Shown here: piece after piece, positions 16,378 to 28,699 of the stretch
Layout: every line of letters begins with the position of its first letter
How positions within the stretch are numbered: the stretch's first letter is position 1
Virus record (IMG/VR): IMGVR_UViG_3300044608_001820
Coordinates: 1 to 53,119 of that record
DNA length: 53,119 bases
Source: a virus
Lineage: Duplodnaviria; Caudoviricetes
Reading direction: 5' to 3' (one strand)
The notes under the pieces: generated by a model
Databases searched by the model: none
What the model saw: the letters and a program-made list of their open reading frames with translations, nothing else
Told to the model about the DNA's origin: nothing
Program-made: the position numbers and the translations under genes

Positions 16378-16851
16378 ATGTCGCCGCCCGTTGCGCTCAA
16401 CAAAAGTATCCTTGTTCTCAACGCATCGTACGAGCCTCTCAACGTATGCTCAGGGCGGAGAGCATTTGTGCTGGTATTGAAAAAGAAGGCACAGGTGCTA
16501 TCAAGGCAGGTCATCCGACTTCTTAGCTACATCAGACTTCCGATGAGTCGGATCAATGCGAAGAAGCCAAGTCGGAATCTCATCCTCAAGCGCGACAATT
16601 TCACTTGTCAGTACTGCGGCGCAGACCGCAATCTGACAATCGATCATGTCTTACCGCAATCACGAGGAGGGAAGGATACGTGGGAGAATCTTGTTGCCTG
16701 CTGTTATACTTGCAACAACGCAAAAGATAATCGTACTCCTGAGGAGTGGGGCGTCCCACTTCGCAGCAATCCGCACGCTCCCTTTAGTCGGTTTCTTCTG
16801 ACGCTAAGTACAAACTCAGTGCCAGAGTGGCGTGAGTACTTATATGTCTAA
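16378..16851 (+). CDS. HNH endonuclease (McrA/HNH_5 type)
   Basis: LVLNASYEP, RDNFTCQYCG, TIDHVLPQSRGG, WENLVACCYTCNNAK. Confidence 0.9.
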   Translation: MSPPVALNKSILVLNASYEPLNVCSGRRAFVLVLKKKAQVLSRQVIRLLSYIRLPMSRINAKKPSRNLILKRDNFTCQYCGADRNLTIDHVLPQSRGGKDTWENLVACCYTCNNAKDNRTPEEWGVPLRSNPHAPFSRFLLTLSTNSVPEWREYLYV

Positions 16852-16892
16852 GTTCACATTTAGACAGATCTTTGATAATCAAAGAACTTGAT

Positions 16893-16965
16893 CGGGATGT
16901 AGCCCAGCGGAAGAGGCCATGGACTTAAAATCCATTCAGGGTGGGTTCGAATCCCACCATCCCGA
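16893..16965 (+). tRNA. tRNA-Leu(TAA), short variable arm
   Basis: cloverleaf; ATGGA-CTTAAAA-TCCAT. Confidence 0.88.
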
Positions 16966-16971
16966 TCGAAT

Positions 16972-17052
16972 GCCCAGATGGTGGAATGGTATACACAGCA
17001 CGCTTAGAACGTGCCGCTGCAAGGCATGGAGGTTCGAGTCCTCTTCTGGGCA
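16972..17052 (+). tRNA. tRNA-Leu(TAG)
   Basis: GCACG-CTTAGAA-CGTGC; long variable arm. Confidence 0.92.
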
Positions 17053-17090
17053 TAGTCCAATCTTTGGACTAAATATACTCAACTTAGGGT

Positions 17091-17163
17091 AATACAAGTG
17101 TACTTGTGACACTTGCCTAAGTGTCCACTAAAAGTCCCAAGGGGCGCGTGGATCCTGTATATT
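17091..17163 (+). promoter_or_regulatory. LexA-like box (17091-17104) + phage promoter P10
   Basis: AATACAAGTGTACT then TGTGACACTT-GCCT-AAGTGTCCAC-N29-TATATT. Confidence 0.72.
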
Positions 17164-17171
17164 GATTTCAT

Positions 17172-17211
17172 GGTTGGGGGAGACACCCCGCCGAACCTCG
17201 AAAACTTCATA
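17172..17211 (+). promoter_or_regulatory. boxB-like hairpin + rrn boxA-like antitermination site
   Basis: hairpin followed by GAACCTCGAAAACTTCATA. Confidence 0.65.
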
Positions 17212-17224
17212 AGCAATATTCTCT

Positions 17225-17296
17225 GGGTCGCTAACTCAGTGGTAGAGTAGTCGGCTCTTAACCGATCTGTCCTCGGTTCGAATCCGAGGCGACCCA
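17225..17296 (+). tRNA. tRNA-Lys(CTT)
   Basis: GTCGG-CTCTTAA-CCGAT. Confidence 0.93.
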
Positions 17297-17298
17297 TC

Positions 17299-17402
17299 GA
17301 GACCGGATCACGGGGTGCCTGGGCGGCACTCGGAAAGAAAAGCCTCCAGTAGGAACTTTCCAGTGACGGGTTCGATTCCCGTCCATTCCACTTTCCGGTC
17401 TC
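17299..17402 (+). ncRNA. tRNA-like RNA (Ala-type acceptor, T arm, no canonical anticodon arm)
   Basis: GGGGTG/CATTCC-A stem with G3.U70; GACGGG-TTCGATT-CCCGTC; flanking 9-bp inverted repeat. Confidence 0.55.
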
Positions 17403-17413
17403 AAGGCGCCGCT

Positions 17414-17486
17414 AGTACCCCTGTACTAGGGACACTTCACCAAGTGTCCACTAAGCGCGCCACCCGCCCCTTGGGCGGTGTATATT
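17414..17486 (+). promoter_or_regulatory. LexA-like box (17414-17427) + phage promoter P11
   Basis: AGTACCCCTGTACT then AGGGACACTT-CACC-AAGTGTCCAC-N29-TATATT. Confidence 0.75.
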
Positions 17487-17494
17487 AGATTCAT

Positions 17495-17538
17495 GGTTGG
17501 GAGGGCGATCACCGCTCCTCCGACCCGAACCTCGAAAA
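17495..17538 (+). promoter_or_regulatory. boxB-like hairpin + boxA-like site
   Basis: GGTTGGGAGGGCG...CGCTCCTCCGACC followed by GAACCTCGAAAA. Confidence 0.65.
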
Positions 17539-17552
17539 TCTAAATTCTTCTC

Positions 17553-17624
17553 GGTCCTATCGACTAGCGGTTAGGTCACAACCCTTTCAAGGTTGCAGCA
17601 CGGGTTCGAATCCCGTTGGGACTA
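17553..17624 (+). tRNA. tRNA-Glu(TTC)
   Basis: CAACC-CTTTCAA-GGTTG. Confidence 0.92.
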
Positions 17625-17768
17625 CTGGGAGTGAAGCTGAATGACTTCGGTCAGGGAGGTCACTCCACCCAGTTCTTGGATAAAACGCGGGGACTAGGGA
17701 CGCCCGCCTTTTGGTAACCTCTGGGGAGGAGGTTAATGACGGCTGCACCGTCCCAGCCAAAAGTCCAT
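17625..17768 (+). ncRNA. unassigned structured RNA
   Basis: UUCG-capped hairpin plus a multi-stem domain. Confidence 0.45.
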
Positions 17769-17842
17769 GACCCATTAGTGTAGCGGTCTATCACGCCACC
17801 CTGTCACGGTGGAGATCACGGGTTCGAATCCCGTATGGGTCG
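17769..17842 (+). tRNA. tRNA-Asp(GTC)
   Basis: CCACC-CTGTCAC-GGTGG. Confidence 0.93.
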
Positions 17843-17843
17843 T

Positions 17844-17972
17844 TGGGTTGCTGCCCGATATGAGAAACACTCTTTTCTGCCCCGGTGGAATTGGTGAAAA
17901 GTCGGAATTACCCTTGCCCCGTCTCTTGGGGATGCGAATTGGGGAAAGGTAAAGGGAAGAGACAGCAACCCA
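17844..17972 (+). ncRNA. unassigned structured RNA with pseudoknot
   Basis: 10-bp closing stem; loop GTCTCTT complementary to AAGAGAC. Confidence 0.5.
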
Positions 17973-17976
17973 TATT

Positions 17977-18048
17977 GGAATCGTAGCTCAGTGGTAGAGC
18001 ACTCGGCTGATAACCGAGCGGTCACAAGTTCAAATCTTGTCGGTTCCA
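17977..18048 (+). tRNA. tRNA-Ile(GAT)
   Basis: CTCGG-CTGATAA-CCGAG. Confidence 0.93.
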
Positions 18049-18052
18049 CTCT

Positions 18053-18125
<73 letters not shown>

Positions 18126-18149
18126 TCGAGAATCTTTCGATTCTCTTAC

Positions 18150-18226
18150 TGTGGAGTAGAGCAGTCCGGTAGCTCGCCAGGCTCATAACCTGGAGGTCGC
18201 AGGTTCGAATCCTGCCTCCGCCACCA
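18150..18226 (+). tRNA. tRNA-fMet(CAT), initiator type
   Basis: 1:72 mismatch, CCAGG-CTCATAA-CCTGG, encoded CCA. Confidence 0.88.
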
Positions 18227-18227
18227 T

Positions 18228-18299
18228 TGGCCTGTAGTTCAGCGGTAGAACGCCTGACTGTTAATCAGGTTGTCGCAGGTTCGATCCCTGCCGGGCCAG
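18228..18299 (+). tRNA. tRNA-Asn(GTT)
   Basis: CCTGA-CTGTTAA-TCAGG. Confidence 0.93.
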
Positions 18300-18300
18300 T

Positions 18301-18749
18301 TCCGCTCTGCTTGGTCTGGAAATGTCCGGGTCAAGTATCGGATCTAAGTCCTAGTTCTGGGGCCCTCCATCGGTGAGGATCACCCTTCCTAGGCCGGGGG
18401 ACTGATCACCCCCGCCCGTTTGACCCACTGTCGGGTCGCGATGGCGGGCAGTTGCCATCGTTCCATTGCGGTTTGCCTCACCGTCCCGCGTTCTTCGGAT
18501 CGCCCGAGGGAGAACGAGGCAATCTCCGTTCTAGACACCGGAGTCGTATGGAATACGTCGTTAAGTTCCCGAAACGGCCACGCACACATTCGTTAAAGTG
18601 TGGACTAGCAGATTGCTCCTAGCTCGCACTAGCTGTGGGCCACCGAAAGGTGACCAATCCCGGTCTCTGCCCGTATGGGGAGCAACTAGCTAGAAAAGCC
18701 CCCACCTCTGTACGTCCTTGAGGCGTTTCATGTGTTAAATGGGGCCTTC
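18301..18749 (+). ncRNA. large (~450 nt) highly structured non-coding RNA candidate
   Basis: many helices with G.U pairs, a GAAA tetraloop and long-range complementarity; no credible ORF. Confidence 0.55.
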
Positions 18750-18823
<74 letters not shown>

Positions 18824-18845
18824 TTGCCTTCAAGGAAGGCACAAT

Positions 18846-18936
18846 GAGAGGGTGGCTACTGTTGGCAATACGTGTGGCTGCGGTCTGTAAAACCGTTACA
18901 TAGGAACCATCGGGGGTTCGATTCCCTCCCCTCTCA
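18846..18936 (+). tRNA. tRNA-Tyr(GTA), atypical D arm
   Basis: GCGGT-CTGTAAA-ACCGT. Confidence 0.82.
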
Positions 18937-18939
18937 TCC

Positions 18940-19212: not shown

Positions 19213-19285
19213 GGGGAATTAGCTCAGTTGGTAGAGCGCCTGCTTTGCAAGCAGGCTGTCAGGAGTTCGAGTCTCCTATTCTCCA
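19213..19285 (+). tRNA. tRNA-Ala(TGC)
   Basis: CCTGC-TTTGCAA-GCAGG; G3.U70. Confidence 0.95.
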
Positions 19286-20576: not shown

Positions 20577-20594
20577 TCGTTCCTCACGGAACGA

Positions 20595-20799
20595 CAATCC
20601 AGTTCGGACACGGGTTCGACTCCCGTATGCTCCATTGAATAATTTTGTTGAAGTAGTTTCCCTAAGAAAGGAACTGTGACCACAAAACTATTCATCATGG
20701 GGCATAAAGGCTTTCGACGGGCTGGAGGGTTCTGAGAACAAATCTCAACAACATCGTACGTTTCGAACGCGTTGCCGTCGCCGCCTGAGCGAACAACCC
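20595..20799 (+). ncRNA. ssrA: permuted two-piece tmRNA
   Basis: acceptor piece ending ATGCTCCA (20634) precedes the coding piece GGGGCAT...TTCGAC (from 20699); tag LNNIVRFERVAVAA* at 20744-20788. Confidence 0.88.
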
Positions 20800-27868: not shown

Positions 27869-28699
27869 ATGCTCGACTATGAACTCACACGATTCATTGG
27901 GCGCAAGAACGCTCTCTCGAATCAAATCAAAAAACTTGAGTCGGAGATCCAAGTAAAAATCAGAAAGCTTGAGGAAGCTGCTGATAAGCTTGATGAGTCG
28001 CAGGAGCGTATCATGATCGCCATTGCCGCTTACAAGAAGCAGTGCGAGCGAGGAGCGAACACTGAGCTTCGGAGAGCGGAGCGCCGCATCAAAGAGCTCG
28101 AGAAACTTGTCGCGAACGGTGGAGGACAAGCGCGGGCGGATGTTGATCTTATGGCAGTTGCCCGTGGCCGAACCTTCGCTATCTTCGATGCGATTTTATT
28201 CAGCATCTCGAATTGGTCTACGAGCGGCGATACAGCTCCCGACTTTGAACTTGTGTCTCAGTCGATTCTGTTCCCCGTAGTCTACGAGCAGGTGATGAAT
28301 GGTCCTGAAGGATACTTACTTGACACTGTGCCAACTAGCGCATTAGAGGTTGTCAGGCGCGGACGGGAGTGGGTCAGGCACCTTCGCCAAACCTGCGAAC
28401 GTTCCCTCATCGACCCGGATGTCTGGCATCGATATCAACCCGCTGTCGTGGAGTGGTGGTTGAATGACGCGCTGCCGCTGATCTATGAGTATCGCAATCC
28501 GGAGTGGGATGATTTCGAGGCTTTCTCCCAGCAGGAGATGATCGCCTGGCGAGATTTCCCTGCAAATCGGGCACTGTCATTCCCGCTGATCTTTGACGGC
28601 ATGGAAACAGTCACTCGGTACCGCGACGAGATTCGCGAATCTTCTGGGATACCAGAATTAGATAAGAACGCGATACAAACTCGCCTCGATCCCCTATGA
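27869..28699 (+). CDS. hypothetical protein, N-terminal coiled coil
   Basis: 276-aa ORF. Confidence 0.7.
   Translation: MLDYELTRFIGRKNALSNQIKKLESEIQVKIRKLEEAADKLDESQERIMIAIAAYKKQCERGANTELRRAERRIKELEKLVANGGGQARADVDLMAVARGRTFAIFDAILFSISNWSTSGDTAPDFELVSQSILFPVVYEQVMNGPEGYLLDTVPTSALEVVRRGREWVRHLRQTCERSLIDPDVWHRYQPAVVEWWLNDALPLIYEYRNPEWDDFEAFSQQEMIAWRDFPANRALSFPLIFDGMETVTRYRDEIRESSGIPELDKNAIQTRLDPL

What the first reader, a model, noticed from the sequence alone, without database searches (positions are those of the whole stretch)
17299..17402. Ala-identity tRNA-like RNA with no canonical anticodon arm
Seen: GGGGTG (17312-17) pairs with CATTCC-A (17384-90), giving G3.U70 and A73. A 6-bp T stem with a TTCGATT loop gives 12 stacked bp. 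The D region is unpaired, and an interrupted stem (GGAAAG...CTTTCC) replaces the anticodon arm. A 9-bp inverted repeat GAGACCGGA/TCCGGTCTC brackets the element. An alternative 5' hairpin (GGGTGCC/GGCACTC) would compete with the acceptor stem. Inference: a tmRNA tRNA-like domain without a message, or a tRNA mimic acting as a decoy for AlaRS, SmpB, EF-Tu or anticodon nucleases.
Basis: partly seen in the sequence, partly recalled or inferred. Interest (0 to 1): 0.7.

Follow-up and report, generated by a model that had tools for sequence, protein, structure and literature searches.

The report
Anticodon-less alanine-type tRNA-like phage RNA
A 79-base RNA gene in the tRNA array of an uncultured phage descends from an alanine tRNA but has lost its D and anticodon arms; its fold is conserved in six related sequences, so it is a working RNA and not a dead tRNA gene.

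Summary
Window 17312-17390 has GGGGTG/CATTCC-A (G3.U70, A73), a 6-bp T stem with a TTCGATT loop, no D or anticodon arm, a competing 5' hairpin and a 9-bp bracketing repeat. ARAGORN and Rfam do not call it.

I found six homologs, all in tRNA arrays: three syntenic relatives and two further lineages. On seven sequences, the 5' hairpin, middle hairpin and T arm are 97.4% paired. Nine pairs changed on both sides, against 0 of 500 shuffles. The core has no indels in four relatives and varies about as much as the neighbouring tRNA-Lys. It is therefore not a pseudogene.

The acceptor halves are invariant. They match the acceptor of 30 of 30 phage tRNA-Ala(UGC) genes that start GGGGTG.

The architecture matches the "TLD-only" tmRNA of mycobacteriophage DS6A. 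However, the tmRNA D-loop signature is missing and tmRNA models match only the T arm.

Best reading: a tRNA-Ala-derived, non-decoding tRNA mimic that is processed like a tRNA and probably charged with alanine. Its cellular role is unproven.

The parts
17224..17298 (+). tRNA-Lys(CUU), co-transcribed upstream neighbour of the element
   Evidence: ARAGORN and Rfam at 66.1 bits. The same neighbour stands in L289, L326 and L357. No promoter-like unit lies between it and the element.
17299..17307 (+). 5' arm of the bracketing stem (GAGACCGGA)
   Evidence: Pairs with 17394-17402 in the minimum-energy fold. Read by eye: C-G becomes U-A in L350/L353, G-C becomes A-U in L357, L289 has one uncompensated change, the arm is deleted in L326, and there is no clear equivalent in L002.
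17312..17317 (+). 5' strand of the acceptor-like helix (GGGGTG); also part of the competing 5' hairpin
   Evidence: Invariant in 7 of 7 sequences. Same 5' strand as 30 of 30 ARAGORN-called phage tRNA-Ala(tgc) genes that start GGGGTG.
17313..17331 (+). 5' hairpin: 7-bp stem and a 5-nt loop NNGGY with invariant GG. It stands in the D-arm position and excludes the acceptor helix.
   Evidence: Minimum-energy fold and RNAalifold consensus. Paired in 100% of cells; one pair changes C-G to U-A and three pairs change to wobble.
17332..17361 (+). Middle hairpin replacing the anticodon arm: 6-bp stem, A-rich internal loop (AAA invariant), 3-bp inner stem CCU/AGG, 5-nt loop
   Evidence: All 6 outer pairs show a change on both sides in at least one sequence; the inner pair changes U-A to C-G in L357.
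17365..17383 (+). T arm: 6-bp stem and canonical T loop TTCGATT
   Evidence: Matches the tmRNA T-arm consensus. C-G becomes U-A in L002; 97.6% of cells are paired.
17384..17390 (+). 3' strand of the acceptor-like helix (CATTCC) plus discriminator A; no encoded CCA
   Evidence: Invariant in 7 of 7 sequences. The neighbouring tRNA-Lys and tRNA-Glu genes also encode no CCA.
17394..17402 (+). 3' arm of the bracketing stem (TCCGGTCTC)
   Evidence: comparison with relatives.
17108..17163 (+). Promoter-like unit of the tRNA-Lys/element transcription unit: palindrome GACACTT-N4-AAGTGTCCACTAA, then TGTATATT
   Evidence: The palindrome has 9 matches in the window against 0.01 expected. The unit repeats at 17431-17486 before tRNA-Glu. 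The consensus sigma-70 scan does not call it, so its promoter role is inferred.

Best explanation
The element is a functional small-RNA gene that descends from a phage-type tRNA-Ala(UGC).

What it keeps: the alanine-type acceptor halves (G3.U70, A73), a canonical T arm, and a GG-containing loop in the D position.
What it has lost: the D stem and the anticodon arm. A 7-bp 5' hairpin and a 30-nt irregular hairpin stand in their place.

Inferred mechanism: it is transcribed with neighbouring tRNAs from the array's own promoters. The host tRNA-processing enzymes cut it out (RNase P at G17312, 3' trimming, CCA addition). When the acceptor helix forms and stacks on the T stem, the RNA presents a 12-bp alanine-type minihelix that AlaRS can charge. 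With no anticodon it cannot decode. It would therefore act as a non-decoding tRNA mimic that engages factors reading the acceptor/T-arm/elbow: AlaRS, EF-Tu, RNase P, and possibly the ribosome-rescue machinery.

The conserved 5' hairpin competes with the acceptor helix and may gate that state.

Shown: the RNA, its homologs, its fold and its tRNA-Ala ancestry. Inferred: processing, charging and the cellular role.
For: 1. Seven distinct family members, always inside tRNA arrays, in three contexts. After tRNA-Lys(CUU): window, L289, L326, L357. Before tRNA-Leu(UAG): L350, L353. After tRNA-Leu(GAG): L002.
2. Fold: 97.4% of 154 cells are paired and 9 of 22 pairs changed on both sides. 0 of 500 shuffles reach this, and slid controls give 38-57% paired. 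RNAalifold finds the same hairpins independently.
3. Rate in four syntenic relatives: 22 of 79 core columns vary with 0 indels. tRNA-Lys has 16 of 72. Spacers have 50-58% variable or gapped columns.
4. The acceptor halves are invariant in 7 of 7 although the hairpin partner strand of GGGGTGC varies, which suggests a second constraint on them.
5. All 30 ARAGORN-called tRNAs starting GGGGTG, among 94 loci ending CATTCCA, are tRNA-Ala(tgc). Partial GenBank hits fall on annotated tRNA-Ala genes.
6. The acceptor conformer lies only 1.4-4.0 kcal/mol above the hairpin conformer in 7 of 7 sequences.
7. Established knowledge, recalled and not from a call: G3.U70 in an acceptor/T-arm minihelix is enough for alanylation by bacterial AlaRS (Francklyn and Schimmel 1989).
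Against: - No expression, processing or charging data; no RNA run was listed.
- Nearest-neighbour energies and RNAalifold favour the 5' hairpin, which excludes the acceptor helix.
- The acceptor helix has no covariation, because nothing in it varies, so its formation is unproven.
- CATT (17384-17387) can instead pair with AGTG (17362-17365) and extend the T hairpin.
- The bracketing stem covaries, so the working form could be the unprocessed 104-nt RNA.
- Seven sequences from about three lineages is a small sample. The shuffle control does not correct for relatedness.
Confidence: 0.5

Rival explanations
1. A functional analogue of a TLD-only tmRNA. Once charged with alanine it binds SmpB and EF-Tu like the tRNA-like domain of tmRNA. 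It then competes with, or blocks, trans-translation, whether of the host or alongside the phage's own two-piece tmRNA.
For: - Same layout and size as the DS6A TLD-only RNA: 80 nt, 7-bp acceptor with G3.U70 and A73, an unpaired D region of about 14 nt, a closed 30-nt hairpin with an A-rich 5' internal loop, then the T arm.
- PMC4131195 (passages read) states that such a molecule strongly inhibits tmRNA, perhaps by titrating SmpB.
- Every element-bearing record that could be searched also has a permuted-tmRNA match: window 52.3 bits, G003 84.1, G004 42.8, G001 32.2 and G002 30.2 bits. Only one of those last four is over the cut-off. ARAGORN confirms the G003 gene and I read the G001 one by eye.
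Against: - The conserved tmRNA D-loop motif, present in the window's tmRNA and in the Rfam consensus, is absent from the element.
- tmRNA models match only the T arm, at 12 bits against 47.
- The family model ranks tRNA-Ala above the DS6A TLD.
- An SmpB sponge would also hinder the phage's own tmRNA.
- No SmpB gene in 3 of 3 phage records, but all are fragments.
- Co-occurrence with tmRNA may only reflect that these large phages carry full tRNA arrays.
Confidence: 0.15
2. A structured RNA that works in the hairpin form: three hairpins, with or without the bracketing stem. The acceptor helix never forms. It could be a processing, stability or termination element for the tRNA transcription unit. 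Or it could be an sRNA whose single-stranded CAUUCCA tail pairs with another RNA, for example guiding RNase P as a natural external guide sequence.
For: - The 5' hairpin is the minimum-energy and the RNAalifold solution. It keeps pairing in 100% of cells, with one double change and three wobble changes.
- The bracketing stem has two compensatory changes.
- In the window lineage the element is the last gene of a two-gene unit, just before the next promoter-like unit.
Against: - The 5' strand GGGGTGC never varies while its hairpin partner does, which points to an extra constraint.
- CATTCCA is invariant even in the distant L002, and six bases is short for a trans target.
- The bracketing stem is dispensable: deleted in L326, absent in L002.
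- In L350/L353 the element is first in its unit, 5 nt before tRNA-Leu, so it is not a terminator.
- There is no T-run after it.
Confidence: 0.2
3. A decoy for a host defence or toxin that attacks the acceptor end or elbow of tRNA, or a sponge for AlaRS.
For: Phage tRNA arrays are known to counter tRNA-targeting defences (recalled literature, not read here). The element keeps exactly the acceptor, T arm and elbow features.
Against: No defence or toxin partner was identified. An anticodon-nuclease decoy is excluded because there is no 7-nt anticodon loop. Nothing here tests this reading.
Confidence: 0.1
4. A decaying tRNA-Ala pseudogene with no function.
For: ARAGORN and Rfam do not recognise it. 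The L002 record carries several other T-arm-bearing stretches that are not canonical tRNAs.
Against: - Compensatory changes in four helices.
- No indels in 79 nt across four relatives and only one in the distant L002.
- Variability is like that of a working tRNA and well below the spacers.
- It is retained in three lineages whose flanks share no other similarity.
Confidence: 0.03

Closest known systems
TLD-only tmRNA of Mycobacterium phage DS6A (tmRNA Website entry cited in PMC4131195)
   Same: Phage-encoded and about 80 nt. G3.U70 and A73 acceptor, no anticodon arm, an unpaired or poorly paired D region of about 14 nt, a closed hairpin of about 30 nt with an A-rich internal loop, a canonical T arm, and no message.
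   Different: DS6A keeps the tmRNA D-loop motif and a GGGGCCG acceptor, stands alone between protein genes, and has no competing 5' hairpin. The element lacks that motif and has the acceptor of phage tRNA-Ala. It sits in a tRNA array and co-exists with a full two-piece tmRNA. DS6A scores only 29.8 bits with the family model.
Canonical phage tRNA-Ala(UGC) genes with acceptor GGGGUG(N)/(N)CAUUCCA
   Same: Identical acceptor pairs 1-6 with 67-72, the same discriminator A73 and a near-identical T arm. They are the best non-family hits of the family model, at 24-40 bits.
   Different: They have a D arm and an anticodon arm with UGC. The element has neither. The window has its own separate canonical tRNA-Ala (19213-19285) with a different acceptor, GGGGAAU.
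tmRNA (RF00023, RF04321), tRNA-like domain
   Same: Alanine identity, a T arm, no anticodon arm, and a helix leaving the body where the anticodon stem would be.
   Different: No mRNA-like domain, no pseudoknots and no conserved D-loop motif. Rfam scores are 12.0 and 10.9 bits against a cut-off of 47.
Stable non-tRNA RNAs in the T4 tRNA cluster (species 1 and 2) and bacterial Y RNAs (YrlA); both recalled from memory, not read here
   Same: Small stable RNAs with tRNA-like modules. The T4 ones are encoded among phage tRNA genes, and their function is still unclear.
   Different: No sequence or model comparison was possible for the T4 RNAs. For Y RNAs the order of modules differs, no Rfam Y-RNA match appeared, and no Ro/TROVE gene was found in 4 of 4 fragmentary records.

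Membership tests
tRNA (Rfam RF00005 / ARAGORN) | Cloverleaf with a D arm and an anticodon arm carrying a 7-nt loop | tested here: not met
   Not called by ARAGORN or by Rfam at gathering score. In the loose scan the best hit of the tRNA clan is 12 bits, on the T arm only. The inner stem closing a 5-nt loop covaries.
tRNA (Rfam RF00005 / ARAGORN) | Acceptor stem stacked on a T arm with a canonical T loop | tested here: inconclusive
   Six complementary pairs plus a 6-bp T stem are present in 7 of 7 sequences. The acceptor pairs never vary, and a competing hairpin is predicted to be 1.4-4.0 kcal/mol more stable.
tRNA-Ala identity set | G3.U70 wobble pair and A73 in an acceptor helix | tested here: met
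   Read from the sequence and invariant in 7 of 7. The same acceptor occurs in 30 of 30 ARAGORN-called tRNA-Ala(tgc) genes starting GGGGTG. Actual charging cannot be tested with these tools.
tmRNA / TLD-only tmRNA | Conserved D-loop motif of the tRNA-like domain, which lies in the region that SmpB contacts | tested here: not met
   The motif is present in the window's own tmRNA and in the Rfam consensus and in DS6A. It is absent from all seven family members.
tmRNA / TLD-only tmRNA | Match to tmRNA covariance models | tested here: not met
   12.0 bits (RF00023) and 10.9 bits (RF04321) against a gathering score of 47, on the T arm only.
tmRNA / TLD-only tmRNA | Binding of SmpB and entry into stalled ribosomes | not testable with these tools
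   No RNA-protein prediction tool was on hand. No SmpB gene in 3 of 3 phage records, all of them fragments.
Bacterial Y RNA (YrlA) | Ro-binding terminal stem, a tRNA-like module, and a linked Ro (TROVE) gene | tested here: not met
   No Rfam match. TROVE was found in 0 of 4 records, all fragments. The terminal stem is absent in L326 and L002.

The most novel reading that the evidence does not exclude
A phage tRNA-Ala has evolved, independently of tmRNA, into an alanine-charged RNA without anticodon or message. It enters ribosomes whose A site is empty, or titrates rescue factors, and so works with or against the phage's own two-piece tmRNA to control ribosome rescue during infection. The conserved 5' hairpin would act as a switch that hides or exposes the acceptor end.
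Probability: 0.15. Interest if true: 0.8.

Novelty: new variant of a known kind. Interest (0 to 1): 0.62.

Why it matters
Phage tRNA arrays are usually read as codon-usage or anti-defence toolkits made of ordinary tRNAs. This is a conserved array member that cannot decode yet keeps the features read by AlaRS, RNase P and EF-Tu.

The only precedent I found in print is one TLD-only tmRNA in phage DS6A. This family reaches the same layout from a tRNA-Ala ancestor and occurs in at least three phage lineages. That suggests acceptor/T-arm mimics without anticodons are a recurring phage device.

It gives a small, testable object for three questions. What do non-decoding aminoacyl-RNA mimics do in infected cells? 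Does a competing hairpin gate aminoacylation? How did the tRNA-like domain of tmRNA arise?

tRNA and Rfam scans miss it, so current phage annotation does not show such genes.

Tried and rejected
- Expression: the look-up of sequencing runs on window 17200-17560; no RNA holder was listed.
- GenBank phages: blastn of the element found 8 records, none covering 80% of the query, only T-arm/acceptor pieces. Megablast of 16800-18400 found only single tRNAs.
Only two of these (L289, L326) are family members, so more members probably exist.
- Genome scan: 2 stretches. L357 is a member. L356 is a chance match inside GC-rich sequence with no tRNA nearby.
- Viral scans found only L002, L350 and L353. A pattern that ignores the acceptor and the 5' hairpin found the same three.
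- Protein partners: SmpB 0 of 3 phage records, with one hit on another contig of the MAG, presumably the bacterium's own gene. TROVE, FemAB and AlaRS: 0 of 4 records each. All records are fragments (14-51% complete), so these blanks decide nothing.
- Pfam and PHROGs on 40 window ORFs showed no tRNA-related enzyme.
- Decoding tRNA with an odd body: rejected. The loop is 5 nt and closed by a covarying pair, and the would-be anticodons differ between homologs.
- Mobile element with terminal inverted repeats: rejected. There is no target duplication, the repeat covaries as a helix, and L326 lacks it.
- attP core: rejected, because the 5' acceptor strand is present as well.
- T-box-like pairing of the hairpin loop with NCCA ends: rejected, because the base before GG is not conserved.
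- Literature searches found no description of this family; that is the basis for saying it is not in print. Of PMC4131195 and PMC11143913 I read only the passages returned by 'find'. Other papers were seen as search listings and abstracts only. Mao et al. 2009 was not seen; it is cited only through PMC4131195. Supplements were not consulted.
- Host: the tmRNA tags read reminded me of cyanobacterial tags. This is recalled, not tested, and I make no host claim. The MAG label Microbacteriaceae may reflect mis-binning.

Full report
**Setting.** The window is a 53-kb fragment of an uncultured virus record, estimated at 24% complete. It carries myovirus-type structural and replication genes: portal, major head protein, sheath-like protein, DNA polymerase, topoisomerase II. 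It also carries thymidylate synthase and a cytosine methylase. Between 16892 and 22337 lies an array of 31 tRNA genes plus a permuted (two-piece) tmRNA. The finding sits between tRNA-Lys(CUU) (17224-17298) and tRNA-Glu (17553-17625).

**The observation.**
- the six-pair acceptor-like helix GGGGTG/CATTCC with G.U at the third and fourth pairs, and A17390 as discriminator;
- a 6-bp T stem with loop TTCGATT;
- the interrupted GGAAAG/CTTTCC stem;
- the 9-bp bracketing repeat;
- the competing hairpin GGGTGCC/GGCACTC.

ARAGORN and Rfam do not call it. With loose thresholds only the 17-nt T arm matches tmRNA models, at 12.0 and 10.9 bits against a cut-off of 47. The minimum-energy fold of the 104-nt stretch is the bracketing stem plus three hairpins. 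Its energy is -44.9 kcal/mol with z = -2.74, and 3 of 200 shuffles fold as well. The 79-nt core alone is not exceptional in energy.

**Homologs.** Pattern scans found six further distinct copies.
- L002, L350 and L353 came from viral contigs.
- L289 and L326 came from metagenome contigs.
- L357 came from a contig binned into a MAG.
- A pattern that ignores the acceptor and the 5' hairpin found the same three viral contigs.
- GenBank phages hold no full-length copy.

L289, L326 and L357 are syntenic with the window: promoter-like unit, tRNA-Lys(CUU), element, promoter-like unit, tRNA-Glu. In L350 and L353 the element follows a sigma-70-like promoter and a leader, and stands 5 nt before tRNA-Leu(UAG). 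In L002 it follows tRNA-Leu(GAG), and the 5 kb around it share only tRNAs with the window. Each record has one copy. A covariance model of the family scores the seven members at 79-104 bits. The next best hits are canonical phage tRNA-Ala genes at up to 39.9 bits, so the family is discrete.

**A working fold, not decay.** I tested the structure made of the 5' hairpin, middle hairpin, inner stem and T arm on the seven-sequence alignment.
- 97.4% of 154 cells form standard pairs.
- 9 of 22 pairs show a change on both sides.
- 0 of 500 shuffles reach these values, and sliding the partners gives 38-57% paired.
- All six pairs of the middle stem have double changes.
- The inner stem changes U-A to C-G in L357, and the T stem changes C-G to U-A in L002.
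- The 5' hairpin changes C-G to U-A in L326 and L357 and keeps pairing through wobble in L350 and L353.

RNAalifold predicts the same hairpins without my input. Seven sequences from about three lineages is a small sample, and the shuffle control does not correct for relatedness.

Among the four syntenic relatives the core has 22 of 79 variable columns and no indel. The adjacent tRNA-Lys has 16 of 72. Spacers and leaders have 50-58% variable or gapped columns.

The bracketing stem also has compensatory changes, read by eye: C-G to U-A in L350/L353 and G-C to A-U in L357. It is weakened in L289, deleted in L326 and absent in L002, so it is not essential.

**Ancestry.** The acceptor halves GGGGTG and CATTCCA are invariant in 7 of 7 sequences. 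I examined 94 viral loci that carry a T loop followed by CATTCCA. ARAGORN of them as tRNAs that start GGGGTG, and all 30 are tRNA-Ala(tgc). It calls no tRNA at 46 of the 94, which include the four family members in that set. Partial GenBank hits fall on annotated tRNA-Ala genes. L002 even keeps the seventh pair, C-G, of that tRNA-Ala clade. The element is therefore a derivative of a phage-type tRNA-Ala. It is not a recent copy of the window's own tRNA-Ala, which has a different acceptor.

**Acceptor helix or hairpin.** The two are mutually exclusive. Predicted energies favour the hairpin by 1.4-4.0 kcal/mol in 7 of 7 sequences. That margin is within what stacking on the T stem, an elbow contact or a bound protein could reverse.

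The hairpin has some covariation. The acceptor helix has none, because nothing in it varies. Two points suggest the acceptor pairing still matters:
- The 5' strand never varies while its hairpin partner does.
- CATTCCA is kept even in the most distant member.

The loop of the 5' hairpin has an invariant GG, as a D loop does, opposite a canonical T loop. This fits a tRNA-type elbow. I read the hairpin as either a folding intermediate or a gate on the acceptor state. This is inference.

**Comparison with tmRNA.** Hudson, Lau and Williams 2014 (PMC4131195, passages read) list mycobacteriophage DS6A as having a TLD-only tmRNA. They note that a similar molecule strongly inhibits tmRNA, perhaps by titrating SmpB.

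I located the DS6A sequence at 28478-28557 of the record. It is 80 nt and has the same layout as the element: acceptor with G3.U70 and A73, a D region of about 14 nt, a closed 30-nt hairpin with an A-rich internal loop, and a T arm.

All element-bearing records that could be searched also hold a permuted tmRNA match: 4 of 4 at E of 0.001 or better, with one over the cut-off. ARAGORN confirms the one in the L002 record, and I read the one in the L350 record by eye.

Against membership:
- The element lacks the conserved D-loop motif that the window's own tmRNA, the Rfam consensus and DS6A all carry.
- tmRNA models see only its T arm.
- The family model ranks tRNA-Ala above the DS6A TLD.

So the element resembles a TLD-only RNA in form but is not a tmRNA. 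Whether it binds SmpB is open.

**Verdict.** The finding is a real, conserved, previously unannotated family of tRNA-Ala-derived tRNA-like RNAs without an anticodon arm, encoded in phage tRNA arrays. The most likely mechanism is maturation by the tRNA-processing enzymes and presentation of an alanine-type acceptor/T-arm minihelix that cannot decode (confidence about 0.5). A TLD-like role in ribosome rescue (0.15), a role in the hairpin form (0.2) and a decoy role (0.1) remain open. A pseudogene is very unlikely (0.03).

Noticed in passing
window 18845-18939: ARAGORN calls this 95-nt gene tRNA-Arg(gcg) and Rfam does not call it at all. The fold shows a cloverleaf whose anticodon loop reads CUGUAAA, that is tRNA-Tyr(GUA), with an unusually long D arm and a 15-nt variable region. 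This would give the array all 20 amino-acid types. L353 has a tRNA-Tyr at the matching place.
   Followed up: partly
window 20588-20788: Two-piece (permuted) tmRNA with acceptor GGGGCAT/ATGCTCC and a tag frame ending ...NNIVRFERVAVAA. ARAGORN's tag is a different and probably wrong frame. Homologous genes with similar tags stand in the L002 record (ANKIVKFERAVVAV) and the L350 record.
   Followed up: partly
window 17627-17673: A 47-nt hairpin with a TTCG loop directly after tRNA-Glu has no variable column (1 gapped) across four relatives, so it is more conserved than the tRNAs. No Rfam match and an unremarkable folding energy. Function unknown.
   Followed up: partly
window 1260, 11186, 11702, 13478/13484, 15412, 15661, 17108, 17431: The palindromic motif GACACTT-N4-AAGTGTCCACTAA has 9 matches against 0.01 expected, all in the first third of the window. 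At the two tRNA units it lies about 25 nt upstream of TGTATATT. It is probably the binding site of a dimeric regulator of one promoter class. The consensus sigma-70 scan finds no -35 box there.
   Followed up: partly
window 17185-17204 and 17502-17538; L350 and L353 leaders: Each tRNA transcription unit starts with a leader of the form GGTTG, GC-rich hairpin, CGAACCTCGAAAA. This holds in the window lineage and also in the L350/L353 lineage, which has a different promoter. It may be a processing or stability signal.
   Followed up: no
L155, L157, L160, L169, L184, L191, L192, L193, L197, L205, L217 (viral contigs): Another tRNA-like sequence without an anticodon arm, about 60 nt: acceptor GGAATGT/ACATTCC, one short hairpin and a canonical T arm. 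It is near-identical in at least 11 contigs, is not called by ARAGORN, and scores 27-31 bits with my model. Of the 94 loci ending CATTCCA, 46 have no tRNA call, so such minimal tRNA-like genes may be common in phages.
   Followed up: no
L369 minus strand, about 1100-1700 (record of L002): Several further stretches with a T arm and a complementary acceptor-like end but no canonical cloverleaf. One is an ARAGORN 'tRNA-???' and one is a 30-bit match to my model. They lie upstream of the L002 element.
   Followed up: no
window 16378-16851: An HNH endonuclease gene (PHROG E = 1.2e-49) lies immediately upstream of the tRNA array.
   Followed up: no
window 18300-18750: A 450-nt gap inside the tRNA array with no tRNA and only short overlapping ORFs of at most 66 aa. 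Not examined for RNA structure.
   Followed up: no
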